From a plasmid: DNA of 64,000 bases. A program made the position numbers and the translations under genes. Location: sequence record NZ_CP029448.1. One strand, 5' to 3'. Below, one piece after another: positions 5,451 to 62,345 of the stretch. Below the pieces are notes generated by a model. The model was not told the origin of the DNA. It saw nothing but the letters and a program-made list of their open reading frames with translations, and ran no database searches. The first letter of the stretch is position 1, and each line of letters begins with the position of its first letter.

Positions 5451-5465
5451 AGGTGAGGGAAGGGC

Positions 5466-10642: not shown

Positions 10643-10693
10643 TAAGCCAGTGACTTCGGCGTCAAATCAGGGTCTGACAAGTGGAGCTGCGGG

Positions 10694-11128
10694 TTAATTC
10701 TGGGTGATCTGGCTGCGATGCTTTTCCGCCTGTTGCTGATGAATAACGGAAGACTGACCATTATTCGCCTTCTCATGCACAACAGCGGCTTTCTCATGCT
10801 CGCTCATTTCGGAAAATGGCTTAGCATTTTTTTGGGTGTTCTCAGGTTTGGCTTTCATCATTTTTTTATGCATTTCAGCCATGTCCTGATGGGCAGCAGA
10901 ATTGCCGTTTTGCATCATTTCATGGGACATTGCGGCCTGATCGTGACCGCTCATATCCATCATTTTCATGCTCTCCCCCTGAACTGCACTTTTTTCAGCG
11001 GATGATTGCATCTGATGGGCAGGCGCCTGGGCATTATTTACCTGGTCATGCATGTTCATTGTCTCTGCAGCCCAGGCAGATGAAGCGACAGCCATCATGG
11101 CAATAAAGGATACAAGGATCTTTTTCAT
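10694..11128 (-). CDS. pcoE: PcoE periplasmic Met/His-rich copper-binding protein
   Basis: signal peptide 'MKKILVSFIAMMAVASSAWA', then SilE/PcoE-type MxxH/HxxM repeats. Confidence 0.85.
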   Translation of the reverse strand: MKKILVSFIAMMAVASSAWAAETMNMHDQVNNAQAPAHQMQSSAEKSAVQGESMKMMDMSGHDQAAMSHEMMQNGNSAAHQDMAEMHKKMMKAKPENTQKNAKPFSEMSEHEKAAVVHEKANNGQSSVIHQQQAEKHRSQITQN

Positions 11129-11300
11129 GGTTGGGTCTCCGGTGTTTTCATACCCGAACAATCAATGCTTATAACAGAGAAAGCATTTGATCTCAGGGCT
11201 GGTTGATCATCACGCCAGGAACCGGGCGATTGAATTATCACGCTGTCCTGATTTATGGCTGATTATAAAAAACCGCCTCTGTTTATCGCGTGACTGAACG

Positions 11301-11316
11301 ATGACATTTTTGTCAC
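11301..11316. promoter_or_regulatory. cop-box-like palindrome ATGACATTTTTGTCAC upstream of pcoE
   Basis: TGACAnnnnnnTGTCA inverted repeat typical of CusR/PcoR/SilR binding sites. Confidence 0.45.
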
Positions 11317-11343
11317 CTTCCGGGTTTCTCCTGAATAACGGTA

Positions 11344-34515: not shown

Positions 34516-35757
34516 TCACAGAATACCCGCTATTTTTGCCTGCTCCAGCCAGTCTTTAAACTCTTCCAGCAGTTGCTCGTACAGTACCTCATCCTTCACC
34601 GTTGCGAAGTTATCGATGGCAAAGAAGTTGCTGTTATCGATTCGCCGATCGCTAAAGGTATCCAGTTTTTCGAGAATACCGTAATTCGAGCCTCCGAGGC
34701 CCACAAATTTCCAGAAAATGGGGTAGTTGGCCGAGCGGCGTATGGCTTCTTTGATTTCACGGGTTTTACTAATCCCACCATCCGTAATGCAGACAACATA
34801 GACCGGCAGTGTGCTGTCCTTGAAGAAGTCGATCACCTCATTCATAACCGGCGGCTCGTTGTTCGTCCCGCCCAGGCCCGGAAGAATTTCCCAGGCAGAG
34901 CGTTTACCCGTGTTCTGGATAGCAGCAATATATCCGTCAAGATTGTCCAGGGTGACGTCAGGGTATTTCTTGTGACGCTCAGCAAAGCCCCATACATCCA
35001 TCGTGCCGTCATCGTCGAACTGGACTGACAGGACAGCTATACGGTCGAGAACGGACTGCACATGTCCCTTTTTAAACTGGCCGGTCATAGAGCCTGAGGC
35101 ATCGAGAACAAAAGCCACTCGGGCTGCAACGGTATCCAGCTTATGCTTGGCAAGAGAAACACTGGCTTTTTTTGCCAGGCTGATAAGCGCGGGGGCTTTC
35201 CCTTCCAGCTTCTTCTCCAGACTGATACGGGAAGCCTGTGGCGGTGTATCAACTGGCTGTGCAACATCAACACCATAGCTGACAGCGAGCGGCTCCAGTC
35301 CGCCGTTAAACCCCTGCCCCTGTGCTCGGAGTTTCCAGCTGTCCTTGTGTCGATAAATCTCGCCCATAATCACCGCTTTCTCACTGCGGCCATTAAGATC
35401 GACATTAAATTCAGCTGTTCCGGTTGCCGTTAGCCTGAGTTGTGACAGTGCGCTGATCGTGTCATTTCCGTCAATCACAAGGGTTATCGCGATTTTCTGT
35501 ATGGTGACAGGAATACGGTCAAGTTCAATATGCACGTTCGCATGCTGGTGGCCGGGAGATAGTCTTACACCACCACCAGCTGCACTCAGATTGTTATAGA
35601 AGATAAAGTCAGCATCGCCGGTAACCTTACCCTCTGCATTCAGCATAAATATGCATATTTCAGGTTCACTACGAAAACCGGATGATGCCGGATAGTCAAG
35701 CCTGAGGTCCAGAGTCGATGTATGAAGCGGGATATTCTGTCCTGATTGTAATTGCAT
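34516..35757 (-). CDS. terF: tellurium resistance protein TerF (TerD-like domain plus vWA domain)
   Basis: N-terminal TerD-like fold, C-terminal vWA 'DASGSM' MIDAS motif; ORF to 35832, probable start 35757. Confidence 0.8.
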   Translation of the reverse strand: MQLQSGQNIPLHTSTLDLRLDYPASSGFRSEPEICIFMLNAEGKVTGDADFIFYNNLSAAGGGVRLSPGHQHANVHIELDRIPVTIQKIAITLVIDGNDTISALSQLRLTATGTAEFNVDLNGRSEKAVIMGEIYRHKDSWKLRAQGQGFNGGLEPLAVSYGVDVAQPVDTPPQASRISLEKKLEGKAPALISLAKKASVSLAKHKLDTVAARVAFVLDASGSMTGQFKKGHVQSVLDRIAVLSVQFDDDGTMDVWGFAERHKKYPDVTLDNLDGYIAAIQNTGKRSAWEILPGLGGTNNEPPVMNEVIDFFKDSTLPVYVVCITDGGISKTREIKEAIRRSANYPIFWKFVGLGGSNYGILEKLDTFSDRRIDNSNFFAIDNFATVKDEVLYEQLLEEFKDWLEQAKIAGIL

Positions 35758-35844
35758 CTTTTCTCTCTGTGATGATGAGCAATACAAGTGTGTAAGCAGA
35801 TACAAGAAACCCCGGGCAGGCCGGGGTTTCATATGCGCTATTTG

Positions 35845-36420
35845 TCAGATGTTGATGCCGTGCTGTTTAGCCAGCGCACCCAGACCGCCAGCAAACCCCT
35901 GACCAACGGCTTTGAATTTCCATTCAGTACCGTGGCGATAGAGTTCGCCGAAGATCATCGCGGTCTCTGTTGATGCGTCTTCAGACAGGTCAAAACGTGC
36001 AATCTCAGCGCCGTTATCGTTGTTCACAACACGCATGTAGCTGTTGCTGACCATACCGAAGTTCTGTTTACGGGCTTCAGCTTCATGAATAGTGACAGCA
36101 AACACCAGTTTTTTGACTTCAGCACCGACTTTAGCCAGTTCGATTTTGACCTGTTCATCATCGCCGTCGCCTTCGCCGGTACGGTTGTCACCCTGATGCT
36201 GGACCGCGCCGTCCGGGCTGGTGGTGTTGTTATAGAAAACGAAATGAGAGTCAGACAATACTTTACCATCGTCACCGACCAGAAAAACGGAGGCGTCAAG
36301 GTCAAACGCCTGACCATCGGTGACTCGTGCATCCCAGCCAAGGCCTACAAGCGCCACATTCATGGAAGGGGCTTCTTTGGTCAGAGAAACATTACCGCCT
36401 TTTACGAGAGAAACTGCCAT
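35845..36420 (-). CDS. terE: TerD-family protein TerE
   Basis: 191 aa, '[13 protein letters not shown]' Ca-binding TerD signature. Confidence 0.9.
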
Positions 36421-36500
36421 TTTATTGCTCCTGCTAATCGTTGTCGTCCGGGGTGGTTAATCACCCCGGAGTGAAAAAGAGTGTGAAAAGTTACTTTTTA

Positions 36501-37082
36501 TCAGGACGCGTTAATGCCGTACTGCGCACAAACGGAAGCCAGACCACCGGCATAACCCTGTCCGACCGCGCGGAATTTCCATTCCGCGTTGTGGCGATAC
36601 AGTTCGCCAAACAGCATGGCGGTTTCGGTAGAGGCATCTTCAGTCAGGTCATAGCGGGCGACTTCTGTCTGATTGTCATCATTCACCAGGCGGATGAATG
36701 CACCGGATACCTGACCGAAGCTTTGACGACGAGCCTGAGCATCGTGAATGGTCACGACGAAAATGATTTTGTCCACATCAGCCGGGACTGCATCCAGTTT
36801 GATTTTCAGGGACTCATCATCGCCATCGCCTTCACCGGTACGGTTGTCACCGGTGTGAGTGACTGAACCGTCGACAGATTTCAGGTTGTTATAGAAAATA
36901 AAATCGGCATCACCACGAACCTTACCATTTGCGGCCAGCAGGAAGGCGGAAGCGTCGAGGTCAAAGTCCTGACCATCGGTAGAACGGGCATCCCAGCCAA
37001 GACCGATCAGAACGTTTTTCATCGTCGGGGCTGCTTTGCTCAGAGAGACGTTGCCGCCTTTGGATAGTGAAACACTCATCAA
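36501..37082 (-). CDS. terD: TerD
   Basis: 193 aa TerD-family protein with the same signature. Confidence 0.9.
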
Positions 37083-37117
37083 TTTATCCTCTTTCGTTAA
37101 TCATTAATCAGCTGAAA

Positions 37118-38158
37118 TCAGCTCTCTTTGTTTTCTGCTTCCGGTTTTTCCGGGAAGATGACGCTGGCAAGAATCCCCAGTGCCAGCACACCTAATACAA
37201 CATACAAACTGGTGGTCGCGGACAGACTGTAGCCATGATGCCAGATATGATCTGAGGCATTGAGTCCCAGCTTAATCGCGATAAAGAACAGCAGGACGAT
37301 AACGGCCTTTTCCAGCTGAGACAGATACTGCTTCAGGGCTTCCAGGACAAAATACAGGGTACGAAGGCCAAGGATGGCAAACATCATCGCGCTGTAGACA
37401 ATCAGAGGTTCACGGCTGACCGCAATGATTGCCGGGACGGAGTCGAAGGCAAACATGACGTCAGAGAGTTCCACAACCGCCACGCACAGCATAAGCGGCG
37501 TCGCATATAAGGCCGCTTTTTTTACCCGACCCACAGTGACATCGTTGTTTTCGGGCTTAGACAGCTCTGCATCCACCTCTTTTTGCGTTAACAGGAACGC
37601 ATGCCCGGACAATTTCGGCCAGATGGGGAAGAAGCGTTTGACCAGACGATAGGCGAGGTGCTGGGAATAATCCTCAATTTCATCACCGTCATCACCACTT
37701 TTCAGCATCATAACGGCAGTCCAGGCGACAACCACAGCAAAGACCAGTTCTACGTAAGGTCCAAGGCTGAGGAGTCCGGTACCAATGGCAACGAAGATCC
37801 CCCTGAAGACAATCGCTCCAATGATCCCCCAGTACAGCACACGGTGACGATAACGGTCAGGCACTGAGAACCATGAGAAGATAGCCATCATGACGAAAAG
37901 GTTATCAACTGACAGCACTTTTTCCAGGGCATAACCTGTAACAAACAGGCTGGCAACTTCTGCACCGTGATGAACATAGAGGAAACCGGCAAATGCCATC
38001 GCAACGATAACCCAGAAAACGGACCATAAGGCCGCGCTCTTAAGGGAAATTGGCTTGTCATGCCGGTGCATGAACAGGTCAATAAAGATGGCACCGACTG
38101 ACAGCGCAATAAAAACAATCACTGTTTCAGTCGGGAAACCGATGTGTGTTGAAACCAT
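37118..38158 (-). CDS. terC: integral membrane protein TerC
   Basis: 346 aa, about 9 TM segments, TerC family. Confidence 0.9.
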   Translation of the reverse strand: MVSTHIGFPTETVIVFIALSVGAIFIDLFMHRHDKPISLKSAALWSVFWVIVAMAFAGFLYVHHGAEVASLFVTGYALEKVLSVDNLFVMMAIFSWFSVPDRYRHRVLYWGIIGAIVFRGIFVAIGTGLLSLGPYVELVFAVVVAWTAVMMLKSGDDGDEIEDYSQHLAYRLVKRFFPIWPKLSGHAFLLTQKEVDAELSKPENNDVTVGRVKKAALYATPLMLCVAVVELSDVMFAFDSVPAIIAVSREPLIVYSAMMFAILGLRTLYFVLEALKQYLSQLEKAVIVLLFFIAIKLGLNASDHIWHHGYSLSATTSLYVVLGVLALGILASVIFPEKPEAENKES

Positions 38159-38181
38159 AATGTACCCTTAACGGATGTTTA

Positions 38182-38637
38182 TCAGAGGCCGAATTCAGCC
38201 GGGTCGAAGCCAAGAGCACGTGCAATTTCGCGAACGGCATTTTGTTCATCTGCGTCAAAGTTACCGTCACTCTTGGCAACCGCAATCCCGACACGCAGAG
38301 CCAGTTGCGCCGCTTCTGGCTGGTCTTTCAGGGCGAGGATATACTTCATGGTCTCCCCTTTGCCGATTTCCAGATCAAAGTCGAAGCTGGTCACCAGTTT
38401 GTTGAAAAACTCGATAACCTCAGTCGTTTCGAAGACTTTCAGTTCTTCTGACGCCCGCAGAAATCCAATCATCTTCTGTTTTTCTTCTGCGCTGACGCCG
38501 TCGCTGGCAACCGCGATACGGGCGCATACAGCAACAGTACCCTGCATAAATTTCTTGTTTTTGTAACGGCCAACCTGGCGGGTCAGTTCCTCGCGCCCTG
38601 AGGTCAGCGCCCCTTTTACTTTGTCAAAAAAGCTCAT
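38182..38637 (-). CDS. terB: TerB
   Basis: 'MSFFDKVKGAL...' TerB N-terminus; ORF to 38697 gives N-extension overlapping terA. Confidence 0.8.
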   Translation of the reverse strand: MSFFDKVKGALTSGREELTRQVGRYKNKKFMQGTVAVCARIAVASDGVSAEEKQKMIGFLRASEELKVFETTEVIEFFNKLVTSFDFDLEIGKGETMKYILALKDQPEAAQLALRVGIAVAKSDGNFDADEQNAVREIARALGFDPAEFGL

Positions 38638-38659
38638 TTTCACATCCTCAATAGTTCGG

Positions 38660-39817
38660 TTATTTGGAACCTTTAGACCAGCGAAATCCCCAGCCAAATG
38701 CCTTATCCATCTCCTCCTGACCTCTGAAGAACTGGTTAATGCGTTCTACCCGGATGGACCCGTTGTCATTTACCAGACGGGCAATCGCACACAGCGTTCG
38801 TTTGTTATCACCTTCGGTCAGACGGGTTTCAATGGGGGGCTGGTCCGGTACATGGAGAGTCACAACACCGTCGGTTTTATCCCAGCTGGGGACACCCTGA
38901 TAAATGAAGGCATATATCAGTACCTGACTGATTTCCTTCCACTCCCGACCATTAATATGCATCCATTCGCCATCCGAGGCCTCCCCGGTACGATCATCGC
39001 CCTGCAGCTGAACAAAAGGTTCGTGATGATAGTTGCCAAAGGCATTGCCAAGAGCCTGGACCACGGATTTGTAACCGCCCTGAAGCTCCACGAACGCCCC
39101 CAAATCAAGATCGATCGCTTTGTTAGAGCCGAACATCCCACCGAGTAAACCACCGGAGTTGCTTCCGCGATGCCAGTTAAGGTTGATGCGGATCTCACCA
39201 AAGTTATCCTTCTTGGCAAGACTGATAGCCGGTTTTTCTTTGGTTAACGACACCTTACTCAGGCTCACTTTATTTGGAGCTGGGGGCGGTGTGGTCGGCG
39301 GTTGTGTGGACGGTGGAGGTTCATCAGAGACATTGACGCCAAAGTGTTCAGCCAGTGGCTTGAGCCCACCATTAAACCCCTGGGCAATAAACCGGAACTT
39401 CCATTCAGCGTTACGCCGATAGAATTCACCGAGGATAAGAGCAGCTTCCTGCCGTCCGGTCAGTTCGACCTGCCCGCTTATCAGTTGAGAAGCACCACTT
39501 TCAACCAGGATAGAAAGATTATTCAGAGCCGAGACGGTGTGGCTGCCGTCACAGGTCACCGTAAAAGCGACTTTCTGTACCTCTGATTTGAGGCGGCTAA
39601 GGTCAACGATAAAAGCGCTGTTATTTCCCTCGGCATGAAAACTGACAGAGTTATCGTCGTTGCGGGGCTGTCCGTAGAAGACCATATCGGTGTCTCCCTG
39701 CACTTTTCCATCGGCGAACAGACGGAAAGCTGAGGCATCGACAGAGCCACCGGAGAGGATCCGCACGCGGAGTTCCTGAGCGGGAACGGGGGCATTTCCC
39801 CCTGGAGTCAGGTTCAT
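38660..39817 (-). CDS. terA: TerA (tandem TerD-like domains)
   Basis: 385 aa with two TerD-like repeats and a Pro-rich linker. Confidence 0.9.
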   Translation of the reverse strand: MNLTPGGNAPVPAQELRVRILSGGSVDASAFRLFADGKVQGDTDMVFYGQPRNDDNSVSFHAEGNNSAFIVDLSRLKSEVQKVAFTVTCDGSHTVSALNNLSILVESGASQLISGQVELTGRQEAALILGEFYRRNAEWKFRFIAQGFNGGLKPLAEHFGVNVSDEPPPSTQPPTTPPPAPNKVSLSKVSLTKEKPAISLAKKDNFGEIRINLNWHRGSNSGGLLGGMFGSNKAIDLDLGAFVELQGGYKSVVQALGNAFGNYHHEPFVQLQGDDRTGEASDGEWMHINGREWKEISQVLIYAFIYQGVPSWDKTDGVVTLHVPDQPPIETRLTEGDNKRTLCAIARLVNDNGSIRVERINQFFRGQEEMDKAFGWGFRWSKGSK

Positions 39818-40404
39818 GAGCTAACAACCGTACTGACAATGTCCGCGTGCATATCATCAATTGTACGGCCAGTACTGGCTTTACCATGGGCAGTAAAGTC
39901 CCAGTTGCCGTTATTGCGTCGCAGTGAGGCGATAATGATCCCGGTATGTGAACCCTGTTCGGTGAGTTTGTATCGGGCCAGTTCTTTATTGGTCTGGTCT
40001 ACTACGCGGCAGAAGGCGTTATCCACATCGTTGAAGGTCTGTCCACGGAAACTGTTAACCGTAAAAGCCAGGTATTCAACTTTTGCAGGCAATTTGCTGA
40101 GATAGACGTTGATGACTTCATCGTCACCATCACCGTCACCCGTCAGGTTATCGCCGGTATGCACCACTGAGCCGCAGGTCGATTTCAGTTTACGAAACCA
40201 GATTGTGTCAATTTTATTACCGGCACTGTCCAACAGAACGCAACCAGCGTCCAGATCGATAGAATCATTGCCGCCAAATAGGCCCCCGAAAATCCCTTTC
40301 TTCTTTAGCGGATCCCATCCAAGACCAAACTGAAGTTGACTGAGAGCAGTAGAGTGTTTGCTGAGTGATACCGTCTGGTTTTTACTTAAAGAAACCATAT
40401 TCAT
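39814..40404 (-). CDS. terZ: TerZ (TerD family)
   Basis: 196 aa, 'GDNLTGDGDGDDE'; first gene of terZABCDEF. Confidence 0.9.
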   Translation of the reverse strand: MNMVSLSKNQTVSLSKHSTALSQLQFGLGWDPLKKKGIFGGLFGGNDSIDLDAGCVLLDSAGNKIDTIWFRKLKSTCGSVVHTGDNLTGDGDGDDEVINVYLSKLPAKVEYLAFTVNSFRGQTFNDVDNAFCRVVDQTNKELARYKLTEQGSHTGIIIASLRRNNGNWDFTAHGKASTGRTIDDMHADIVSTVVSS

Positions 40405-52061: not shown

Positions 52062-53256
<1,195 letters not shown>

Positions 53257-53462: not shown

Positions 53463-53969
53463 CGTACGATTTTTTCCGAATTCTGCGGTTCCCCCTACTG
53501 GGTCAATGGCCCTCGCGCGGTCGATCAGGCTGGCTGGAAGAAAATTATCGGGGACAAACCGACCCTGATCATGCTCGATGAGTTGCCGCCCTACCTTGAA
53601 AACGCGAGCACTACTGTCATCGGCGGCGGTACGCTGGCTACCGTGAGCACCTACACACTCAGCTGCCTGATGAGCGCCGCTCTGGAGTTACCGCGTTGCT
53701 GCATTGTGATTGCCAACCTATCCGGCAGCTATGTGGCTCAGACCAAGGCAATTGCCGAAGCAATCTCTAACCTCCAGCAAGAAGCCAGTCGCCAAGCGAG
53801 CACCATCACCCCCGTGCAGTTGGCGGGTACCTGTTCATCCCTAGCGCCTCTCCGCCTTGATGCTGGCAGATTCAGTCTGGCCTCGCGGTTCGACCTACCG
53901 AAATATCGGCGGTTACATTGTCCCCAGAGCTTCAGACCCGGCTGTTACCGGCCACGCCTGTCTGGGTAG
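53463..53969 (+). pseudogene. remnant of a P-loop NTPase gene (no start codon until 53571)
   Basis: open frame '...KIIGDKPTLIMLDELPPYLEN...' Walker-B-like 'LIMLDE'; lacks N-terminus. Confidence 0.25.
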
Positions 53970-54567
53970 GGAACGAGTGGTGGAACAGTCGGTTCCGTCG
54001 GGCGTTAACCTGCGGAACAGAAACCCATGCGACTTTCAGGTCGCACTGCCGAAATAATACTGGTTTCCCTTCTTGGTCTGGTGCATTTCCGGGTCGCGCT
54101 TGCCGTCCTTGTTCTTGGTCGAACTGGGCGCATTGATCAGCGTTGCATCGACGATGGTGCCCTGGCGCAGCGACAGGCCGCGGTCGCCCAGAGCCATTGA
54201 TGACAGCGAGGATGCCGGCCGCCAGCTCGTGTTTCTCCAGCAAGCGGCGGAAGTTGAGAATGGTGGTTTCGTCGGGGATGCGCTCCAGGTTCAGCCCGGC
54301 AAACTGGCGCAGGATCGTGGTTTCGTACAGCGCTTCCTCCATCGCTGGATCGCTGTAGCCGAACCAGTTCTGCAGCAGATGCACACGCAGCATCGCCATC
54401 AACGGGTAGGCCGGACGGCCACCTTCACCCTTCGGATAATGTGGCTCGATCAAAGCAATCAAGCCCTTCCACGGCACCACCCGATCCATCTCGATCAGGA
54501 ACAACTCCTTGCGGGTTTGCTTGCGCTTGCCAGCGTACTCGGCGTCGGCGAAGGTCATCTGCTTCAT
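53932..54567 (-). pseudogene. IS5-family (ISKpn26-like) transposase, frameshifted and truncated
   Basis: first roughly 118 aa match the IS5-family Tnp N-terminus ('MKQMTFADAEYAGKRKQTRKE...'), then the frame is lost near 54165, consistent with a 2-bp deletion. Confidence 0.65.
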
Positions 54568-54639
54568 CGGGAAACTCGGTGGGTGGAATCCGGGTATTTT
54601 GCCAAAATCTGGAAGTCTTCTTCAGAGTTTCCCTAGTGT

Positions 54640-54677
54640 GGGGTTTGAGGGCCAACGATGTAAAAAACCACGTTAAT
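54640..54677. repeat. Tn3-family IRL (38 bp)
   Basis: see transposon entry. Confidence 0.8.
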
Positions 54678-54837
54678 AGGTTAACCTATTGTTTTATTTT
54701 AATTATTAGGTGCTGCATTTACAGCTACTCCAATGATCATGGGGCTGATGGTCGATGGAACGCAATACCAAGTAGATTGATTGCATAAAGTTCCTTCAAT
54801 TCCGATCTGCCCTCCCGTTTTCACATCCTACTTCAGT

Positions 54838-56904
54838 TCAATTTTGTTGCCATTCCTTTACAACAGCTTCCCAATTGGCCGTTCTCTCGACCAATTTCCC
54901 ATCAGCATCCTTTCTTGTCCAAACATCCCAGAAATCAGGGTCATCAGAATGGGGTTGCTGCTCTTTCGTCAAATTTTTCATTTTAACTAAGACAGGAAGT
55001 TCAGATGCCCAGCCCATCAGTATTGCATGTTGAGATGGCAATGAAGGCAATTCACGGAGTAATCCTCGCAAATTGTCGGGTACCATTTTATGAACTTGCT
55101 CCTGATCTTTGTCATTGCTAATTCGATGCAGAAGAAAAGTATTACATTGAGATAAAACTGTAGGTGATAATTCTGATGGTCGTTGCGAAGAAATAACCAT
55201 ACCGAGACCAAATTTCCTGCCTTCTCGTGCAATTTTCTCAAATACTTGACAGCAAACAGCTGCGACATCCTGATTTTCACTGTCCTCACGATACCGTTTA
55301 ATAAATGTATGTGCTTCTTCAGCAACAAGTACCGTAGGTAAAGATTTGTTATATAGTCGTCTATAACGTTGCAATGATTCAAAAATAATTCTTGAAATGA
55401 CAGCTGTCACAAGATGAGTAATTTCAGTTGGTACTAAAGAAAGATCAATAATTGAAACGCAGCTATCACCATCACCATCTTTCCCAATATATGTTTCTAA
55501 CCAATTAGCCAAGTCAACTCTATGCTCTGAGTCATTGGTTATGGGTTTCATTCTTGTATCCGCAAGCATTGTGCGTATTCTAGCTACTAGATATTCAACA
55601 TATTGCTCGCTACCATTTTCTTGTGCTAACGCCTCTAAATAGGAGACTAAATTATTTCCGTCAAAAGGGACGGGGATATCCTCGTTTTTAGGAAGGAGTT
55701 CACACTCATCGCCTCCAAGGCTCTGAAATGAAGATAACACTCCATTTATGATGTTATCAACTGCGCTAACTTTAGCATTGTAATCTGGATATCTGCCTTC
55801 TCTTTGCCCACAAAAATCTTGAATAGAGATGATTAATTTATCTAGCTCAGGGCATGGTGTAGTTAATCTCGCTTTGTATTCTTCCAGACTCTGACGCCAA
55901 ATATTAATTTTAGCCAAAAGATTTTTGGCTCCAGGGAAATCATTAAGTGCCGCTGCTCCTTTAGATTTATCCGCTTTTAAAGAAACCAAAATTGTACCTA
56001 GGTATTTTTTAACTTCTATATCTATATTCTTTTGTAAATCAAATTCTTCATTTCTCATTGCTCTCAAGGAGCGTTTTAGTAATGGAAGTTGTGCTTTAGG
56101 ACTTGCTTGCGTGAATGATGCCCACTCCGAACTATTCCAAAACCATGAGGGTACTTGTAATTGGTTTTCACTGCCTTCAGCCTCAACCTTAAATACTCTA
56201 CCTTTAAATTTCGTCGTTGGCCCCAAAGCACGTGCATACTCGCCGTTGGGGTCTAGGATGATAAATCTGGCATTTGGTTTTATTTGTGATTCCAATGCAG
56301 ATTCGAGTGACCACTGGATTAATCCAGATACAGAGCAAGACTTACCGCTACCAGTATTTCCGAGCACTGCTATATGACGACCAAATAATCTATCAGGATC
56401 TACAGCTACATTTGCATTGTTCGCAAGTGGACTTTGTCCAATGATCACTCGCCTATTATTTCCAGATTCGACTATTGATCTAAGTTGTAAATCTGTCGGT
56501 AGTAAAATAGCAGCCCCAATAGAAGGAAACGATTCAGAACCTCGTTGAAATCTGAAATAATCAGTACCATCTTTGGACAAACGTTTAAGCATTCCCACCG
56601 GATTCAAACTTATTTTTTTTCGGGGGAATGGTAGATTTACTAAACCAAATTCTTGAACATCTCTTTGTTTTGGATAAGGCGAATGTTCTACAGCAAGCCA
56701 CTCTATTTGCCCAACTAAGTAACCATTATCACATGATATTAATACATAACTGTTTACTCTTGGAAAGTTTCTAGGCGTTCCTGCATTCAAAGCAACAGTA
56801 TCAGGTGAGTCAATCTCTAATATTGCTCTAATTTCATTAGGTGAAACAAAATCTACAGTGCCGACCCTGAGTTGCTCACCTTGTTCAATCGGAAATGAGT
56901 TCAT
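54838..56904 (-). CDS. herA: HerA-like (DUF87 / FtsK-HerA superfamily) ATPase, 688 aa
   Basis: Walker A 'GNTGSGKS', Walker B 'FIILDPNGEY'; start ATG overlaps the sir2 stop (ATGA). Confidence 0.8.
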   Translation of the reverse strand: MNSFPIEQGEQLRVGTVDFVSPNEIRAILEIDSPDTVALNAGTPRNFPRVNSYVLISCDNGYLVGQIEWLAVEHSPYPKQRDVQEFGLVNLPFPRKKISLNPVGMLKRLSKDGTDYFRFQRGSESFPSIGAAILLPTDLQLRSIVESGNNRRVIIGQSPLANNANVAVDPDRLFGRHIAVLGNTGSGKSCSVSGLIQWSLESALESQIKPNARFIILDPNGEYARALGPTTKFKGRVFKVEAEGSENQLQVPSWFWNSSEWASFTQASPKAQLPLLKRSLRAMRNEEFDLQKNIDIEVKKYLGTILVSLKADKSKGAAALNDFPGAKNLLAKINIWRQSLEEYKARLTTPCPELDKLIISIQDFCGQREGRYPDYNAKVSAVDNIINGVLSSFQSLGGDECELLPKNEDIPVPFDGNNLVSYLEALAQENGSEQYVEYLVARIRTMLADTRMKPITNDSEHRVDLANWLETYIGKDGDGDSCVSIIDLSLVPTEITHLVTAVISRIIFESLQRYRRLYNKSLPTVLVAEEAHTFIKRYREDSENQDVAAVCCQVFEKIAREGRKFGLGMVISSQRPSELSPTVLSQCNTFLLHRISNDKDQEQVHKMVPDNLRGLLRELPSLPSQHAILMGWASELPVLVKMKNLTKEQQPHSDDPDFWDVWTRKDADGKLVERTANWEAVVKEWQQN

Positions 56905-58292
56905 TCAGCATCCTCGCTATTATTTGAAATTGTTGTACGATATAAACCCCTTGATTTCAATAGTTCTGCCATACGAATTGATGATCTGTCTATCGCTGCT
57001 TTAGGAAGATAAAAATCCACTAAATTCTTGATATCTCCAAAGTGGTCACCAAGTAATAAAGATATTTGAGCTTTTCTTCCACTTTCGTTTACAAAGCGCA
57101 TAATTCTACCGAGTGGATCGCCGTAGGCAATTATTACTATATGCGTTGAGGGTATTGTCAGCATGTCAATAATAACACGGTTTATATGTTCATCTCCAAA
57201 ACTATAACCATATGTTACCAAAGTACTATTAGGACGACATGTTGCAGATGCTAAGTCTCTGAATAGTTCAACATAAGGGTATTCTGATGTTTCTCGGTCT
57301 TTAACCGAGTTTGGATAAATCATTAATTGATGATAGTTCGCTGCTCCAGCAGCCTCCACTTGTAAAAAGGGTTCCACCGAACTCGCACCAAAAGGTAATC
57401 CAAATCGCCTTATGGCTCCTTCGGTAGTATACCAGTCCAATGAGCCATGTAATTTAGTAAAGCGCGCCACACCTTCCAAATATCTTGGTTCACCACGAAT
57501 ACCCGGTGGATTATAATGATAGTCGACTTCTAGTCGCGAAGATCTGAAAATAGGCGCTATAGTACCAACAAATCTGTCAATTAGTCGAATACCTGCTATT
57601 TCAGCTCCTGCTTCAATTATCCTGTCGTAATTCGTCGTGAAAATATGTAATCGATCCCTTGTCGCTGTTCGACTTGAAAAACTCATCAAAAAACTTACTA
57701 AATAATTAAACGTTTGTGTTTTTAAATCGTTTTTTGCATCGCGAATTAACTTTTCCCCATTACTAACTGAATCTGAGAATAATTTCAAACATCTTGTTAG
57801 CTCATTATTTAACTCAACTAACTCACTTTTTAAATTTCGATATGGGAGAGCACCAGGAGGCGGTTCTGGAAGTGGGAGATTTTGCGCAGTTAAAATCTCT
57901 AATCCTTTAATTAACTCATTAATTGAACGGATTTGGTCTTCAATATTACCTCTTCCTCTTCCTGAGGCTTCAGCTGTTTTAGCTACATAACTATCTATTT
58001 CAGCCTTGCAAACTTTGAGATCATTAATCCATCCCATGCCTTGAGGTTTCGTGCCTGTCGCTGACTCTTGGATTGCTGAACTAAGTCCCGCGCCAATAAG
58101 TATATTTAGGTGTTCAGACTGAAAAAGAGCAGTTAACCAAGGTTCTATTCTTAAACGCAAAAAATCAGGAGTGATTTTATCTCCTGGTTTTGCCCATGAG
58201 CAGTGTCCAACAACTTTAAATGCACCAACTTCGCTGTGTGGATCCAACTGAACCGGAGACTGGTCATCTCCAAGCTTTAAGTATTGACTCAC
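56901..58292 (-). CDS. SIR2-like domain protein (predicted NAD+ hydrolase), 463 aa
   Basis: sirtuin-type motifs 'NILIGAGLS' (GAGxS), 'FTTNYDRIIE' (TxNxD), 'LHGSLDW' (catalytic His); no Zn-ribbon cysteines, as in defense-type SIR2. Confidence 0.75.
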   Translation of the reverse strand: MSQYLKLGDDQSPVQLDPHSEVGAFKVVGHCSWAKPGDKITPDFLRLRIEPWLTALFQSEHLNILIGAGLSSAIQESATGTKPQGMGWINDLKVCKAEIDSYVAKTAEASGRGRGNIEDQIRSINELIKGLEILTAQNLPLPEPPPGALPYRNLKSELVELNNELTRCLKLFSDSVSNGEKLIRDAKNDLKTQTFNYLVSFLMSFSSRTATRDRLHIFTTNYDRIIEAGAEIAGIRLIDRFVGTIAPIFRSSRLEVDYHYNPPGIRGEPRYLEGVARFTKLHGSLDWYTTEGAIRRFGLPFGASSVEPFLQVEAAGAANYHQLMIYPNSVKDRETSEYPYVELFRDLASATCRPNSTLVTYGYSFGDEHINRVIIDMLTIPSTHIVIIAYGDPLGRIMRFVNESGRKAQISLLLGDHFGDIKNLVDFYLPKAAIDRSSIRMAELLKSRGLYRTTISNNSEDAE

Positions 58293-58299
58293 TTTGAAT

Positions 58300-58869
58300 T
58301 CATCCTTCGTTAGAGTTAATAGCTGTTTTTCTTTTCAGCCTAAAATAGGTCGCCCTTGATATACCCGTTTTTTCCATTACTTCCTTAACTTGTACGTCCT
58401 TATTAATCAATTCATTAGCTAATTCAGCCTTCTTGTGAGGCTTTCTTCCGAATTTGACCCCCTTAATCATAGCGGTCTTCCGCCCATCGTTAGTTCGCTC
58501 CAAGATCCTTTCTCGTTCCGCCTCGGCAACAGCTGCTAGTATCTGGATAACCATTTTTCCCATTGTGCCTTCAGTACTAAGACCATTCTCTAGAAATCGG
58601 ATAGCGATGCCTTTTTTATAGCAAGTATCCACAATACGAATCATATCAGCGGTATTACGTCCTAGACGATCCATTTTAGTACAGAGGATGATGTCATCTT
58701 TCTCCGCTCTGGCAAGGAGTCTCTGTAGCCCTGCACGCTCATCAGTTGCTCCTGACATCATGTCAGTAAATACACGATCATCCCTCACTCCCGCTGTTTT
58801 GAGTTCAGTAATCTGGCTCGTCAGTTTCTGATGGCTGGTTGATACTCTTGCATATCCTAATAATGCCAT
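58300..58869 (-). CDS. tnpR: serine resolvase TnpR
   Basis: 'GYARVSTSHQ' catalytic Ser motif, C-terminal HTH 'ISRATYFRL'. Confidence 0.9.
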   Translation of the reverse strand: MALLGYARVSTSHQKLTSQITELKTAGVRDDRVFTDMMSGATDERAGLQRLLARAEKDDIILCTKMDRLGRNTADMIRIVDTCYKKGIAIRFLENGLSTEGTMGKMVIQILAAVAEAERERILERTNDGRKTAMIKGVKFGRKPHKKAELANELINKDVQVKEVMEKTGISRATYFRLKRKTAINSNEG

Positions 58870-59028
58870 TTTGGTCTCATAAATCGATATTGATACTGCG
58901 TAGTATCATAAGGTATAAATCGCGATTTTTGATACTAATGTATGATGCCGTTTTGAGCAGTCTCACAATTTATAATATTTGAGACGGTTAAAAAAAGGAC
59001 AGAACTCCCGTTTACGAAAGGATGCGCA
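58870..59028. promoter_or_regulatory. res site / divergent tnpR-tnpA promoter region
   Basis: AT-rich 159-bp spacer with perfect palindrome TGATACTGCGTAGTATCA (58891-58908) and related half-site TGATACTAATGTATGA (58930-58945). Confidence 0.6.
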
Positions 59029-62000
59029 ATGAGTGATGACTTTCTTACCAGCGAACAGACAGAAAACTACGGTCGCTATGTGGCAGACCCAAATGAGGTT
59101 CAGCTGGCTCGGTATTTTCATCTGGATGAGCGTGACCTTGCTTTTATTAATCAGCGACGGGGAAAACATAACCGGCTGGGGATTGCACTTCAGCTGACTA
59201 CGGCGCGCTTTCTGGGAACGTTTCTTCCTGATCCCCTTCAAATTCCCTCATTCATCCGTTTTTACATTGCGGCACAGTTGAACATCAGCCGACCAGAGAT
59301 CCTTTCCCGGTATGCTGAAAGAGAAAATACCCGCTGGGAGCATCAGGGGCTTATCAAGCTCTATTATGATTATCATGATTTTGGTGATTTCCCCTGGACA
59401 TTCAGACTGAAGCGTTTGCTCTATACTCGCGCCTGGCTCAGCAATGAGCGTCCAGGTCTGCTGTTTGATTTTGCTACCGCATGGTTGCTGCAAAATAAGA
59501 TCCTGCTACCCGCAGCCTCGACTCTGACAAGGCTGATTGGCGAAGTACGCGAACGGGCAAGTCGACGATTATGGCGAAGGCTGGCTTTGTTGCCTGACAG
59601 CTGGCAGAAAACACAACTGGACGGTTTACTTGAAATACCTGAAGGGCAGCGTATATCGGTGCTGGAGGAGATGCGAAAAGGTCCTGTCACTATCAGTGGG
59701 CCGTCATTTACAGACGCCCTGGAGCGATATACCCGACTGCGTAGCATGGAGTTTTCCCGGTTGAATTTCTCCGGTCTGCCTGCCATCCAGCTGCGGAATT
59801 TGGCCCGTTATGCCGGAATGGCTTCGGTGAAATACATTTCAAGAATGCCTGACGAACGGCGACTGGCCGTGCTTACTGCGTTTGTGAAAGCACAGGAAAT
59901 TTCGGCGCTTGACGAGGCCGTGGATGTGCTGGATATGCTTATTCTGGATATCACGCGTTCTGCAAAAAATATCGGGCAGAAAAAGCGGCTCAGGACCCTG
60001 AAAGATCTTGATCGTGCCGCGCTATTACTGGCACGGGCATGCACGTTATTACTTGATGAGAACACCGATGAAGCAGCTCTGCGGCAGGCTATTTTTCGCC
60101 GCATACCAAAGGACAAACTGGCTGAATCCGTCGGCAAGGTAAATGAGCTGGCGCGCCCGCAAGATACTCAGTTTCAGGATGAAATGGTGGAACAATATGG
60201 ACGGGTGAAGCGTTTCCTGTCCGCGATGTTGCGTGACTTACACTTTCAGGCCGCCCCGGCCGGGGAGCTCACGTTGTCAGCAATCCATTATCTGGCCGAA
60301 CTGAGTGGCTCAAAAAAGCGAATTCTCGACGATGCACCAGAGCAAATCATTTCCGGCCCATGGAAACGTCTGGTCTACGACAGAGATGGTAGGATTCTAC
60401 GAGCGGGTTACTCGCTGTGTCTTCTCGAGCGCCTTCAAGATTCTTTGCGCCGTCGTGATCTCTGGCTGGAGAACAGTGATCGGTGGGGGGACCCGCGTCA
60501 AAAATTGCTTCAGGGAGCTGAATGGCAGGCACAACGCATCCCGGTATGTCGGGCGCTGGGTCATCCATCAGACGGAACTAAAGCAGCAGAACAACTGGCT
60601 ACGCGGCTTGATGACACATGGAAATCAGTGGCTTCACGTTTTGCCTGCAACGCAGCGGTCAGCATAAGCAATGAAGGTAAGCATCCCTCACTGACGATTA
60701 GCAGTCTGGATAAACTGGATGAGCCACCGGCACTGATACAATTGAATCGTCGGGTAAGAGAATTGATCCCTCCGGTTGATCTGACGGAGCTGTTGCTTGA
60801 AATAGATGCCCGAACCGGTTTTACCCGCGAATTCAGCCACGTCAGTGAATCAGGTGCTCGGGCGCAGGATCTCCAGGTCAGTCTGTGCGCAACACTGCTG
60901 GCAGAAGCCTGCAATATAGGGCATGAACCCCTGATAAAGCATAATATTCCCGCGCTTACTCGCCATCGTCTGAGCTGGGTTAAACAAAATTATCTCAGGG
61001 CAGAAACGCTGGTCACCGCTAATGCACGGCTGGTTGATTTTCAGTCCACGCTGCCGCTCGCGGGGTACTGGGGAGGTGGTGAGGTTGCCTCCGCAGATGG
61101 TATGCGTTTTGTCACACCGGTTAAAACGGTTAATTCCGGACCAAATCGTAAATACTTTGGTTCAGGACGCGGTATCACCTGGTACAACTTCGTCTCCGAT
61201 CAATACTCCGGTTTCCATGGCATTGTAGTTCCCGGGACGCTTCGTGATTCCATCTTTGTACTGGAAGGGCTTCTGGAGCAGCAGACCGGGCTGAATCCGG
61301 TAGAAATTATGACGGACACGGCAGGATCCAGCGATATCATTTTTGGCCTGTTCTGGTTACTGGGCTACCAGTTTTCCCCTCGTCTGGCCGATGCAGGCGG
61401 GGCGATATTCTGGCGGGCAGATAAAACGGCACATTATGGTGCCCTGAATGAGCTGGCCCGGGGATGTGTTGAACTGTCAAAAATAGAATCCCAATGGGAT
61501 GAAATGATGCGAATGGCGGGCTCACTGAAGCTTGGGACCATCCATGCATCAGAGCTTATTCGTTCACTGTTGAGAAGTAGCCGACCATCTGGTCTGGCTC
61601 AGGCGATTATGGAAGTGGGCCGGGTCAACAAGACGTTGTATCTTCTCAACTATATCGATGATGAGGATTACCGGCGTCGGATCCTCACTCAGCTCAACCG
61701 GGGAGAAGGACGCCATGCAGTGGCTCGAGCCATTTGCTACGGACAACGTGGTGAGATTAGAAAACGCTACCGTGAAGGGCAGGAAGATCAACTCGGTGCT
61801 CTGGGTCTGGTGACCAATGCGGTTGTGCTGTGGAATACACTTTACATGCAGGAGGCGTTGTCACATCTTCGCAAATCGGGGGAAACACCTGAAGAGGAGC
61901 ATCTGGCAAGATTATCGCCGCTGATACATGGCCATATAAATATGCTGGGACATTATACGTTTTCGTTACCGGAAGATATTCTGAAGGGCGAGTTAAGACC

Positions 62001-62037
62001 ATTAAATTTGAATACAAACAATGAATTAACCTCTTAG
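59029..62037 (+). CDS. tnpA: Tn3-family transposase TnpA (1002 aa)
   Basis: DUF4158 N-terminus 'RLGIALQLTTARFLG', Tn3 DDE catalytic body; stop codon inside IRR. Confidence 0.95.
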   Translation: MSDDFLTSEQTENYGRYVADPNEVQLARYFHLDERDLAFINQRRGKHNRLGIALQLTTARFLGTFLPDPLQIPSFIRFYIAAQLNISRPEILSRYAERENTRWEHQGLIKLYYDYHDFGDFPWTFRLKRLLYTRAWLSNERPGLLFDFATAWLLQNKILLPAASTLTRLIGEVRERASRRLWRRLALLPDSWQKTQLDGLLEIPEGQRISVLEEMRKGPVTISGPSFTDALERYTRLRSMEFSRLNFSGLPAIQLRNLARYAGMASVKYISRMPDERRLAVLTAFVKAQEISALDEAVDVLDMLILDITRSAKNIGQKKRLRTLKDLDRAALLLARACTLLLDENTDEAALRQAIFRRIPKDKLAESVGKVNELARPQDTQFQDEMVEQYGRVKRFLSAMLRDLHFQAAPAGELTLSAIHYLAELSGSKKRILDDAPEQIISGPWKRLVYDRDGRILRAGYSLCLLERLQDSLRRRDLWLENSDRWGDPRQKLLQGAEWQAQRIPVCRALGHPSDGTKAAEQLATRLDDTWKSVASRFACNAAVSISNEGKHPSLTISSLDKLDEPPALIQLNRRVRELIPPVDLTELLLEIDARTGFTREFSHVSESGARAQDLQVSLCATLLAEACNIGHEPLIKHNIPALTRHRLSWVKQNYLRAETLVTANARLVDFQSTLPLAGYWGGGEVASADGMRFVTPVKTVNSGPNRKYFGSGRGITWYNFVSDQYSGFHGIVVPGTLRDSIFVLEGLLEQQTGLNPVEIMTDTAGSSDIIFGLFWLLGYQFSPRLADAGGAIFWRADKTAHYGALNELARGCVELSKIESQWDEMMRMAGSLKLGTIHASELIRSLLRSSRPSGLAQAIMEVGRVNKTLYLLNYIDDEDYRRRILTQLNRGEGRHAVARAICYGQRGEIRKRYREGQEDQLGALGLVTNAVVLWNTLYMQEALSHLRKSGETPEEEHLARLSPLIHGHINMLGHYTFSLPEDILKGELRPLNLNTNNELTS

Positions 62038-62068
62038 CGTGGTTTTTTACATCATTGGACCTCGAACC
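62031..62068. repeat. Tn3-family IRR (38 bp)
   Basis: see transposon entry. Confidence 0.8.
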
Positions 62069-62345
62069 CCAGTGTGCGCTCTCTTGCTTGGATGGCATTA
62101 CGTTCTGGCCCAACGTTACTGTAGCGAATCCGCAGCAGTATCAATCAAAGCCTCCTGTATCCCGCGTGAAGAAAGACGCTACGTTGCGCCCGTTCTTCCA
62201 CGGCTTCGCTTGCCGCCCCGCTACGGCAGATTCGAAGTATTCATCGAAATGTCATCCTTTAGAAGCAGTGCGGTAACAAGGAATTTCTATCCTTTGCATC
62301 GCGAACCGCAATTGTGCGGCCAGCAATATTGCGAAAGGTGATCAA

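What the first reader, a model, noticed from the sequence alone, without database searches (positions are those of the whole stretch)
54838..58292. SIR2-like NADase + HerA-like ATPase pair: motif-level support and atypical features
Motif support:
- The 463-aa protein carries the sirtuin Rossmann GAGxS motif (NILIGAGLS), TxNxD (TTNYD) and the HG catalytic histidine (LHGSLDW).
- It lacks the Zn-binding Cys tetrad of deacetylase sirtuins, which is the pattern of defense NADases.
- The 688-aa partner has Walker A GNTGSGKS and Walker B IILDPNGEY, typical of HerA/FtsK hexameric ATPases.
- The ATGA overlap implies stoichiometric co-expression, as expected for a SIR2-HerA supramolecular complex.

Atypical features:
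- The SIR2 protein is longer than a minimal SIR2 domain, with roughly 100 extra N-terminal and 100 extra C-terminal residues that could be a sensor or HerA-docking region.
- The cargo is AT-rich compared with its host replicon.
Basis: partly seen in the sequence, partly recalled or inferred. Interest (0 to 1): 0.75.

Follow-up and report, generated by a model that had tools for sequence, protein, structure and literature searches.

The report
SIR2-HerA phage defence on Tn3 transposon
The two genes are an ordinary member of the known SIR2-HerA ("Nezha") family of NAD+-depleting anti-phage systems, and their main point of interest is that they are the only cargo of an intact, recently inserted Tn3-family transposon found identical on many resistance plasmids of gut bacteria.

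Summary

Two details fail:
- The SIR2 length is normal for its clade (453-496 aa). It has about 17-38 extra N-terminal residues and no C-terminal extension, not 100 at each end.
- "IILDPNGEY" is probably not Walker B. By my alignment that motif is VLVAEEAH (524-531).

It has terminal inverted repeats, tnpR, a res region, tnpA and a 5-bp target duplication (AGTGT). A related plasmid holds the exact empty site. Copies about 100% identical lie on dozens of Enterobacterales plasmids.

The cargo's low GC (38.7%) fits a marine gammaproteobacterial donor. dN/dS of 0.06 indicates selection to keep both proteins functional.

Verdict: a new member of a known kind, of modest interest. No function was tested here.

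The parts
54635..54639 (.). Left copy of the 5-bp target-site duplication (AGTGT)
   Evidence: Identical pentamer on both sides of the element. A single copy is present in the exact empty site of NZ_CP062917.1.
54640..54677 (+). Left terminal inverted repeat of the Tn3-family transposon (GGGGTTTGAGGGCCAACGATGTAAAAAACCACGTTAAT). Similarity to the right end extends to 54694.
   Evidence: Inverted-repeat pair 54639-54694 / 62016-62071, 86% complementary. End sequences shown.
54838..56904 (-). HerA-family ATPase, 688 aa. Walker A lysine K188, conserved D218, Walker B E529/E530. Candidate arginine fingers are R560 and R563.
   Evidence: PADLOC HerA PDLC04098, 820 bits, residues 5-687 of 688. Pfam DUF87, 3.5e-22. 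PDB Paenibacillus HerA 8wiv, 7e-49. Motif positions. Sulfolobus residue equivalents from PMC4351679.
56901..58292 (-). SIR2-family NADase, 463 aa. NAD-binding loop G67-A68-G69. Predicted catalytic residues N221, D223 and H282.
58300..58869 (-). tnpR, serine resolvase, 189 aa. Its stop codon lies 7 nt upstream of the SIR2 GTG.
   Evidence: Pfam Resolvase, 2.9e-39. Junction sequence.
58870..59028 (.). tnpR-tnpA intergenic region, the putative res site. It includes a palindrome with a central TTATAA at about 58958-58986, a candidate crossover subsite I.
   Evidence: Sequence. Identity to the E. coli variant steps from about 90% to about 76% here. Some plasmids share only the part to the left or to the right of this region. 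The likeness to gamma-delta res site I is recalled from memory and was not tested.
59029..62037 (+). tnpA, Tn3-family DDE transposase, 1002 aa
   Evidence: Pfam DDE_Tnp_Tn3, 509 bits, and DUF4158, 182 bits.
62033..62070 (-). Right terminal inverted repeat
62071..62075 (.). Right copy of the 5-bp target-site duplication (AGTGT)

Best explanation
The two genes encode a SIR2-HerA (Nezha-type) abortive-infection anti-phage system.

Mechanism, inferred by homology with the solved E. coli, Paenibacillus and S. aureus systems:
- SIR2 forms a double ring of 12 or 14 subunits.
- A HerA hexamer docks on it through its N-terminal beta-barrel domains, which clamp the N-terminal alpha1 helix of SIR2.
- On phage infection the complex releases the SIR2 NADase. 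The predicted catalytic residues here are N221, D223 and H282, with the NAD loop at G67-A68-G69.
- NAD+ is then depleted and phage replication stops.
- HerA ATPase/helicase activity is also required. The predicted residues are K188, E529/E530 and an arginine finger at R560 or R563.

Shown here from sequence:
- Family membership, conservation of the catalytic motifs, purifying selection and conserved gene pairing.
- The pair is the only cargo of an intact 7431-bp Tn3-family transposon (IR - HerA <- SIR2 <- tnpR - res - tnpA -> IR).
- The cargo sits downstream of tnpR, where, from memory, bla sits in Tn3.
- The transposon inserted precisely at this site of a heavy-metal-resistance plasmid of the Klebsiella/Raoultella type.

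Inferred:
- The cargo is transcribed with tnpR, because only 7 nt separate the tnpR stop from the SIR2 start.
- The cargo came from a marine gammaproteobacterium with about 40% GC.
For: Family membership:
- PADLOC SIR2 PDLC04079 scores 517 bits. PADLOC HerA PDLC04098 scores 820 bits over residues 5-687.
- PDB sequence hits are only to SIR2 and HerA chains of SIR2-HerA and related HerA defence complexes.
- The predicted SIR2 structure (pLDDT 66.9, pTM 0.68) has 24 top Foldseek hits, all SIR2 subunits of SIR2-HerA complexes.

Catalytic residues:
- N221, D223, H282, G67 and G69 are invariant in 45 homologues down to 56% identity.
- They align with the FTTNYD and KLHGS motifs of the solved proteins.
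- The equivalent residues are N163/D165/H212 in Paenibacillus SIR2 and N226/H287 in S. aureus Sir2.

Selection and gene pairing:
- dN/dS is 0.059 for both genes against the E. coli transposon variant.
- SIR2 is followed directly by a 675-697 aa DUF87 gene in Rheinheimera, Shewanella, Acinetobacter, Thermanaerovibrio and a metagenomic contig. There is a 4-nt overlap in four of these five. In Thermanaerovibrio the pair is nested inside a type I restriction-modification operon.

Transposon:
- Inverted repeats, Tn3 transposase and resolvase, and the AGTGT target duplication.
- The exact empty site is present in NZ_CP062917.1.
- Other copies carry their own target duplications: GTATA in L008 and GTATT in L002.
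- In the five identical plasmid copies read in detail the element sits next to different genes. 92 plasmid records hold the cargo and tnpR at 99% identity or more.

Origin:
- Cargo GC is 38.7%, tnpA 51.4%, and the window to the left of the transposon 50.7%.
- The closest chromosomal homologues, at 84-88% identity, are in marine Gammaproteobacteria. In Rheinheimera the pair's GC equals that of its flanks, 39.7% against 40.4%.
Against: - No experiment was done on this clade. No paper on it was found in the library searched.
- The proteins score far below NCBIfam's equivalog cut-offs for the tested anti-phage SIR2 and HerA families (118 against 500 bits; 227 against 850 bits). They are about 20-24% identical to the solved SIR2 proteins. 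Assembly state, trigger and the reported nuclease activity therefore cannot be transferred with certainty.
- The predicted structure is unreliable (pLDDT below 50) around the catalytic residues: 220-222 and 236-283.
- The HerA model was unusable, with pLDDT 46.
- The promoter scan found no more sites than chance would give, so co-transcription with tnpR is inferred from spacing only.
Confidence: 0.85

Rival explanations
1. The pair mainly serves the mobile element rather than the host cell. In this reading it is an addiction or stabilisation module, or it excludes competing plasmids or transposons, for instance by sensing incoming or replicating foreign DNA through HerA. Phage defence would then be secondary.
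For: It is the sole cargo of a transposon and is tightly fused downstream of tnpR. The tnpR-cargo module is more conserved than tnpA and is exchanged as a unit at res. From memory, toxin-antitoxin pairs are known to be integrated into Tn3 transposition modules (Lima-Mendez et al. 2020).
Against: Close and distant homologues lie in chromosomes without any Tn3 genes, in defence-island contexts with type I restriction-modification genes, a PglY-like gene and integrases. All characterised relatives act against phages through NAD+ depletion (PMC11472057, PMC11514289, PMC11212891).
Confidence: 0.08
2. The pair is an inactive or decaying passenger: intact ORFs without function.
For: No functional data exist. 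The GTG start codon and the 10-nt spacer after the AAGGA ribosome-binding sequence are not optimal.
Against: dN/dS is 0.059 for both genes over dS of about 0.5. All catalytic and nucleotide-binding motifs are intact and invariant. The same start (MSQYLKLGDD) is kept in the chromosomal Rheinheimera homologue. The proteins belong to 90%-identity clusters of about 850-870 member sequences in public assemblies.
Confidence: 0.03
3. The pair is a housekeeping module: a sirtuin protein deacylase plus a HerA DNA-repair helicase, as in archaeal HerA-NurA end resection.
For: Both superfamilies include such enzymes. Sulfolobus HerA (4d2i) is a detectable relative at 3e-19.
Confidence: 0.02

Closest known systems
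E. coli SIR2-HerA / Nezha (PDB 8j4u, 8su9 and others; SIR2 415 aa, HerA 610 aa)
   Same: - Gene order is SIR2 then HerA.
- The FTTNYD and KLHGS catalytic motifs and the GAG loop are shared.
- It is the best SIR2 match by sequence: 107 bits with the family profile.
   Different: - Only about 21-24% identity.
- This SIR2 has about 34 more residues ahead of the GAG loop (residue 67 against about 33). They are predicted as three beta-strands at pLDDT about 80-87.
- This HerA is 78 aa longer and matches E. coli HerA less well (113 bits) than Paenibacillus HerA (170 bits).
- It falls below the NCBIfam equivalog cut-off.
Paenibacillus sp. 453MF SIR2-HerA (PDB 8w9l, 8wiv, 8wld; SIR2 381 aa, HerA 696 aa)
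   Same: - The HerA is of nearly the same length.
- It aligns over the beta-barrel and first RecA part (14-264) and over the second RecA part and arm region (458-678), at 7e-49.
- The four-domain layout described in PMC11472057 therefore probably applies here.
   Different: - SIR2 sequence similarity is weak (36 bits).
- The Paenibacillus SIR2 is 82 aa shorter.
- Its 14:6 assembly and nuclease activity are not testable here.
S. aureus Sir2-HerA (PDB 8yhx, 8yho; Sir2 428 aa, HerA 562 aa)
   Same: - The catalytic Asn and His sit at nearly the same positions: N226/H287 there, N221/H282 here.
- Residues 1-34 of S. aureus Sir2 are needed for NADase activity and were tested for HerA binding by pull-down (PMC11514289). 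That supports a docking role for the N-terminal region here.
   Different: - S. aureus Sir2 lacks the C-terminal helix used for dodecamer assembly. This protein keeps about 50 residues after the last Rossmann strand, with predicted helices at 416-447.
- S. aureus HerA is much shorter and has no ATPase activity.
Tn3-family transposons with tnpR and tnpA transcribed divergently from res, such as Tn3 and Tn1000 (gamma-delta)
   Same: - Terminal repeats of 38 bp starting GGGG.
- A DDE Tn3 transposase, a serine resolvase and a 5-bp target duplication.
- Cargo downstream of tnpR, where bla sits in Tn3 (the Tn3 layout is from memory).
   Different: - The cargo is a phage-defence operon rather than a resistance gene.
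- No name for this element was found in the records or the literature searched.
- Two variants exist that share tnpR and cargo at about 90% nucleotide identity but differ in tnpA at 77%.

Membership tests
SIR2-HerA (Nezha) defence system | Adjacent, co-oriented SIR2-domain gene followed by a HerA/DUF87 gene in one operon | tested here: met
   56901-58292(-) then 54838-56904(-), with a 4-nt overlap. The same pairing is seen in 5 unrelated genomes.
SIR2-HerA (Nezha) defence system | Both proteins match the system-specific profile models | tested here: met
   PADLOC PDLC04079, 517 bits, and PDLC04098, 820 bits over the full length.
SIR2-HerA (Nezha) defence system | SIR2 catalytic Asn/Asp and His, and the GAG NAD-binding loop | tested here: met
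   N221, D223, H282, G67 and G69 are invariant in the family and align with the motifs of solved SIR2 proteins. Functional residues are defined in PMC11472057 and PMC11514289.
SIR2-HerA (Nezha) defence system | HerA with an N-terminal beta-barrel region and a RecA-like ATPase core with Walker A and B motifs | tested here: met
   Sequence alignment to Paenibacillus HerA covers residues 14-264 and 458-678. Walker A is at 182-189 and EEAH at 529-532. This rests on sequence only, because the HerA structure model failed.
SIR2-HerA (Nezha) defence system | Equivalog of the experimentally tested proteins (NCBIfam NF042942, NF042943, NF042944) | tested here: not met
   118 bits against a 500-bit cut-off; 227 against 850; 188 against 800. 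It is a different clade of the same system type.
SIR2-HerA (Nezha) defence system | SIR2 ring plus HerA hexamer supramolecular complex, HerA-dependent NADase, phage protection | not testable with these tools
   Needs biochemistry and phage assays. No multimer prediction tool was available.
Tn3-family transposon | DDE Tn3-type transposase of about 1000 aa | tested here: met
   PF01526, 509 bits, and PF13700, 182 bits.
Tn3-family transposon | Terminal inverted repeats of about 38 bp starting GGGG | tested here: met
Tn3-family transposon | 5-bp target-site duplication and a precise empty site | tested here: met
   AGTGT on both sides. An exact 80-nt empty site lies in L009. Other copies have GTATA and GTATT duplications.
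Tn3-family transposon | Resolvase gene with an adjacent res site | tested here: inconclusive
   The serine resolvase is clear. The res subsites are proposed only from a palindrome and from recombination breakpoints.
Canonical sirtuin deacylase | Zn-binding Cys4 module in the small domain | tested here: not met
   Four scattered cysteines, none in a CxxC pair.
Thoeris ThsA, DSR2, or SIR2-APAZ (SPARSA) | SLOG domain with a ThsB neighbour; or a C-terminal sensor domain of about 600 aa; or APAZ with a pAgo neighbour | tested here: not met
HerA-NurA DNA end-resection module | NurA nuclease (and Mre11/Rad50) encoded next to HerA | tested here: not met
   The neighbours are SIR2 and the transposon end.

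The most novel reading that the evidence does not exclude
This clade may be a distinct SIR2-HerA subtype. Its clade-specific N-terminal beta-strand extension (residues about 1-40) could change how SIR2 docks on HerA or what triggers the complex. On the transposon, fusion to the 3' end of tnpR could place immunity under resolvase autoregulation at res. Expression of the defence system would then depend on the state or copy number of the transposon.
Probability: 0.12. Interest if true: 0.5.

Novelty: new member of a known kind. Interest (0 to 1): 0.3.

Why it matters
The kind of system is well known, so this adds nothing new to its mechanism.

What is practically relevant:
- A 7.4-kb Tn3-family transposon carries an NAD+-depleting phage-defence operon as its only cargo.
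- It sits, at about 100% identity, on dozens of plasmids of Klebsiella, Citrobacter, Enterobacter, Raoultella and E. coli. Among the copies read here were plasmids carrying SHV-12, TEM-1 and (for the E. coli variant) NDM.
- Phage resistance may therefore spread by the same routes as antibiotic resistance, which bears on phage therapy against these hosts.
- No paper in the library searched links SIR2-HerA with Tn3.
- This clade of SIR2-HerA appears to lack any experimental or structural study.

Tried and rejected
- **HerA structure.** The AlphaFold2 model from 33 homologues (65-88% identical) gave pLDDT 46 and pTM 0.29. It was not used for a fold search.
- **Promoters and terminators.** The scan of 54600-59100 found 14 promoter-like sites against 11.7 expected, and 2 terminator-like sites against 2.8 expected. 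It says nothing about the transcription units.
- **Literature.**
  - Searches for SIR2 + HerA + Tn3, for the RefSeq protein accessions, for Tn3 family + anti-phage + passenger, and for Gao_Her + plasmid + Klebsiella found nothing relevant.
  - The Shen et al. 2023 paper (PMC11418745) is not held.
- **V. cholerae homologue.** I first suspected that the 69%-identical V. cholerae protein (P0041) was the characterised V. cholerae Nezha SIR2.
  - That protein's active-site numbering is N168/H227 (PMC11212891).
  - From the sequence I estimate that the TTNYD Asn and the LHG His of P0041 lie near residues 230 and 290.
  - The characterised protein is therefore more probably of the shorter E. coli-like clade. 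This is an inference from residue numbers, not from an alignment.
- **Other families.** Canonical sirtuin, ThsA, DSR2, SPARSA and HerA-NurA were considered and rejected (see the membership test).
- **AT-richness.** I considered whether low GC is an intrinsic property of the pair. It is not: the pair's GC roughly follows that of its surroundings in the homologues (39.7-56.1%).
Full report
**Observation**

The HerA ATG overlaps the SIR2 TGA (ATGA at 56904-56901), and a GAGGA Shine-Dalgarno sequence lies 6 nt upstream.

The SIR2 motifs are present: GAGLS at 67-71, TTNYD at 219-223 and LHGSLDW at 281-287. SIR2 has only four scattered cysteines (31, 95, 168, 352). HerA has GNTGSGKS at 182-189 and IILDPNGEY at 215-223. 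The cargo is AT-rich: HerA 38.8% and SIR2 38.7% GC, against 43.2% for tnpR, 51.4% for tnpA and 50.7% for the window to the left of the transposon (1-54639).

**Identity of the proteins**

- Pfam sees only a partial SIR2_2 match (residues 216-393, E 1.3e-7) and DUF87 (E 3.5e-22).
- The system-specific PADLOC models match far better. SIR2 PDLC04079 scores 517 bits. HerA PDLC04098 scores 820 bits over residues 5-687.
- NCBIfam's equivalog models for the experimentally tested anti-phage SIR2 and HerA proteins are hit well below their cut-offs: 118 against 500 bits, and 227 against 850 bits. This is the same system type but a different clade.
- In the PDB the SIR2 matches only three sequences at a significant level. 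They are the SIR2 subunits of the E. coli (8j4u, 8su9), S. aureus (8yhx) and Paenibacillus (8w9l) SIR2-HerA complexes. I assigned organisms from PMC11472057 and PMC11514289.
- HerA matches the HerA chains of the same complexes, best of all Paenibacillus HerA (8wiv, 696 aa, E 7e-49). It also matches other HerA-family chains, including Sulfolobus HerA (4d2i).
- An AlphaFold2 model of the SIR2 reached pLDDT 66.9 and pTM 0.68. Its 24 best Foldseek hits are all SIR2 subunits of SIR2-HerA complexes (E down to 5e-10, TM 0.5-0.6), followed by SPARSA at E 0.026.
The HerA model failed (pLDDT 46), so for HerA the evidence is sequence only.

**The 'atypical features'**

*Length.* The length is not atypical. 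The 120 best homologues include about ten fragments of 261-416 aa. The full-length ones are 453-522 aa, nearly all of them 453-496 aa, and they come from Gammaproteobacteria, Synergistota, Bacillota, Acidobacteriota and Bipolaricaulota.

In a 45-sequence alignment reaching down to 56% identity, both ends carry invariant residues. At the N-terminal end these include K6, R46 and the stretch E50-H61. At the C-terminal end they include P430, K431, D435, M441 and R448.

Profiles of other SIR2-HerA SIR2 clades begin to align at residues 49-58 of this protein, at their own positions 12-41. They stop at about residue 388-417, with 46-78 of their own positions still to run. The real surplus is thus about 17-38 residues at the N-terminus and none at the C-terminus.

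In the model the extra N-terminal segment forms three beta-strands (residues 3-28, pLDDT about 80-87). It is followed by helix 42-57, strand 61-66 and the GAG loop.

In the solved complexes the N-terminal alpha1 helix of SIR2 is clamped between HerA beta-barrel domains. Deleting residues 1-34 of S. aureus Sir2 abolishes NADase activity, and the same deletion was tested for HerA binding by pull-down. A HerA-docking role for this region is therefore a reasonable inference. A sensor role has no support.

*Walker B.* 'IILDPNGEY' is a conserved HerA motif. By position it corresponds to D176 of Sulfolobus HerA, 22 residues after the Walker A lysine K154. The Walker B glutamate there is E356 and the arginine finger is R381 (PMC4351679).

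By alignment offsets to 4d2i and to 'lvvleeah' of Paenibacillus HerA, the Walker B here is VLVAEEAH (524-531), with R560 or R563 as the candidate finger. This is my inference.

*Stoichiometry.* The ATGA overlap suggests translational coupling. It does not imply a 1:1 ratio, since the known complexes are 12:6 or 14:6.

**Context**

The pair is the only cargo of a complete Tn3-family transposon at 54640-62070 (7431 bp).

- The terminal inverted repeats start GGGG, and their similarity extends over 56 nt.
- tnpR, a serine resolvase, lies at 58300-58869(-).
- A 159-bp intergenic region follows. It holds a palindrome around a central TTATAA at about 58958-58986.
- tnpA lies at 59029-62037(+) and matches DDE_Tnp_Tn3 at 509 bits.
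- The element is flanked by a 5-bp duplication, AGTGT.
- The Raoultella terrigena plasmid NZ_CP062917.1 contains the exact 80-nt joined flanks with a single AGTGT. That is the empty site.
- Copies of the element in other plasmids sit in different places. Some have their own duplications: GTATA in an IncX3 plasmid and GTATT in an E. coli NDM plasmid, where the element splits ISCR1.
- The cargo plus tnpR is 99% identical or more on 92 plasmid records of Klebsiella, Citrobacter, Enterobacter, E. coli and others.
- The whole element is covered to 80% or more on 79 plasmid records and in 32 of 5426 complete E. coli genomes.
- RefSeq annotates the proteins only as 'SIR2 family protein' (WP_004098990) and 'DUF87 domain-containing protein' (WP_004098991).

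**Evolution of the element**

A second variant of 7517 bp is found mostly in E. coli. Its identities to the window copy are:

| Gene | Nucleotide identity | Amino-acid identity |
|---|---|---|
| HerA | 90% | 94% |
| SIR2 | 89% | 94% |
| tnpR | 93% | 96% |
| tnpA | 77% | 86% |

The drop in identity falls in the res region. dS is 0.33-0.53 for tnpR and the cargo but 1.8 for tnpA. Some plasmids share only the part to the left of res, or only tnpA. These points indicate that modules are exchanged at res.

dN/dS is 0.059 for both cargo genes, so both are under strong purifying selection.

The window variant has lost about 80 nt at the tnpR-SIR2 junction. The tnpR stop codon now lies 7 nt before the SIR2 GTG and overlaps its AAGGA ribosome-binding sequence. 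This makes co-transcription from the tnpR promoter likely. That is an inference, because the promoter scan was uninformative.

**Origin and function by association**

The nearest homologues outside transposons, at 84-88% identity, are chromosomal genes of marine Gammaproteobacteria: Rheinheimera, Shewanella, Alteromonas, Cycloclasticus, Halomonas and Vibrio. There the same overlapping pair lies without any Tn3 genes. In Rheinheimera its GC (39.7%) equals that of its flanks (40.4%). In distant homologues the pair's GC roughly follows that of its surroundings, up to 56%. The AT-richness therefore marks foreign origin.

Distant members keep the SIR2-then-HerA arrangement and sit in defence contexts. 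In Thermanaerovibrio velox the order is hsdM-SIR2-HerA-hsdS-Fic-hsdR, next to a PglY-like gene. In Acinetobacter pittii the pair lies next to an integrase.

**Mechanism (by homology; not tested here)**

SIR2 oligomerises into a double ring and a HerA hexamer docks on it. Infection then unleashes the NADase (N221, D223, H282), NAD+ collapses and the infection aborts. HerA ATPase activity is also required. This follows PMC11472057, PMC11514289 and PMC11212891. The phage counter-measures known for such systems, NAD+-rebuilding enzymes, would be expected to apply.

**Comparison and novelty**

This is a member of the known SIR2-HerA system type, in a clade that already has its own PADLOC model. I found no experimental or structural study of that clade.

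Two points are mildly new:
- The sole-cargo Tn3 vehicle and its spread on resistance plasmids. No paper in the searched library links SIR2-HerA with Tn3.
- The clade-specific N-terminal beta extension.

Verdict: a new member of a known kind, interest about 0.3.

Noticed in passing
window 54640-62070 compared with L002 1501-9017: The transposon is a mosaic. HerA, SIR2 and tnpR are 85-94% identical to an E. coli variant, but tnpA is only 69-82% identical, and the step falls in the res region. dS is 0.33-0.53 on one side against 1.8 on the other. Some plasmids hold only the left module (query 1-4250) or only tnpA. This suggests that modules are exchanged at res.
   Followed up: yes
window 58293-58310 (tnpR/SIR2 junction): Compared with the E. 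coli variant, which has a 76-nt spacer and a 193-aa TnpR, the window copy has an indel of about 80 nt. It places the tnpR stop 7 nt before the SIR2 GTG, inside the SIR2 ribosome-binding region. TnpR is 189 aa and has a different C-terminal end.
   Followed up: partly
window 58958-58986: The palindrome CGTCTCAAATATTATAAATTGTGAGACTG (minus strand) has a central TTATAA. From memory it resembles the crossover subsite I of gamma-delta/Tn3 res. Similarity between the two transposon variants decays from here towards tnpA.
   Followed up: partly
SIR2 residues 236-283 (window about 57444-57587): This is the most conserved stretch of the whole SIR2 family, with an almost continuous run of invariant residues (D239...H282), yet AlphaFold2 gives it pLDDT below 50. 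It may be a mobile active-site lid or an oligomer-dependent element.
   Followed up: no
window 1243-4840: A second, unrelated Tn3-family module is present: a 965-aa transposase that matching plasmid records annotate as Tn5403 family, and a 201-aa resolvase at 4235-4840(+).
   Followed up: partly
window about 11000-31300 and 34516-40404: The backbone is a heavy-metal-resistance plasmid of the Klebsiella/Raoultella type. It carries the sil and pco silver/copper clusters, identified from matching plasmid annotations. It also has a tellurite-resistance ter cluster, identified from Pfam TerD, TerC and vWA-TerF matches. An adjacent StiP / ATP-grasp / phosphoribosyltransferase / HpcH gene set is named in the matching plasmid records.
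   Followed up: partly
window 52130-53110 and 53932-54567: There is an intact ISKpn26 (IS5 family, 326 aa) and a truncated IS5-like transposase ORF (211 aa) just to the left of the insertion site. To the right of the transposon starts a phosphonate/phosphite cluster (phnC here; phnC-phnD-phnE-ptxD in the related plasmid).
   Followed up: partly
L010 (Thermanaerovibrio velox CM001377.1) 2977-11410: A 58%-identical SIR2-HerA pair is inserted inside a type I restriction-modification operon, in the order hsdM-SIR2-HerA-hsdS-Fic/RhuM-hsdR, next to a BrxC/PglY-like gene.
   Followed up: no
window 61766-62070 (last ~300 bp of tnpA plus the right IR): About 1000 E. coli and Salmonella plasmid records carry only a roughly 300-bp remnant, about 92% identical to this end. 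It is unannotated, and is presumably a relic of a related Tn3-family element on F-type plasmids.
   Followed up: no
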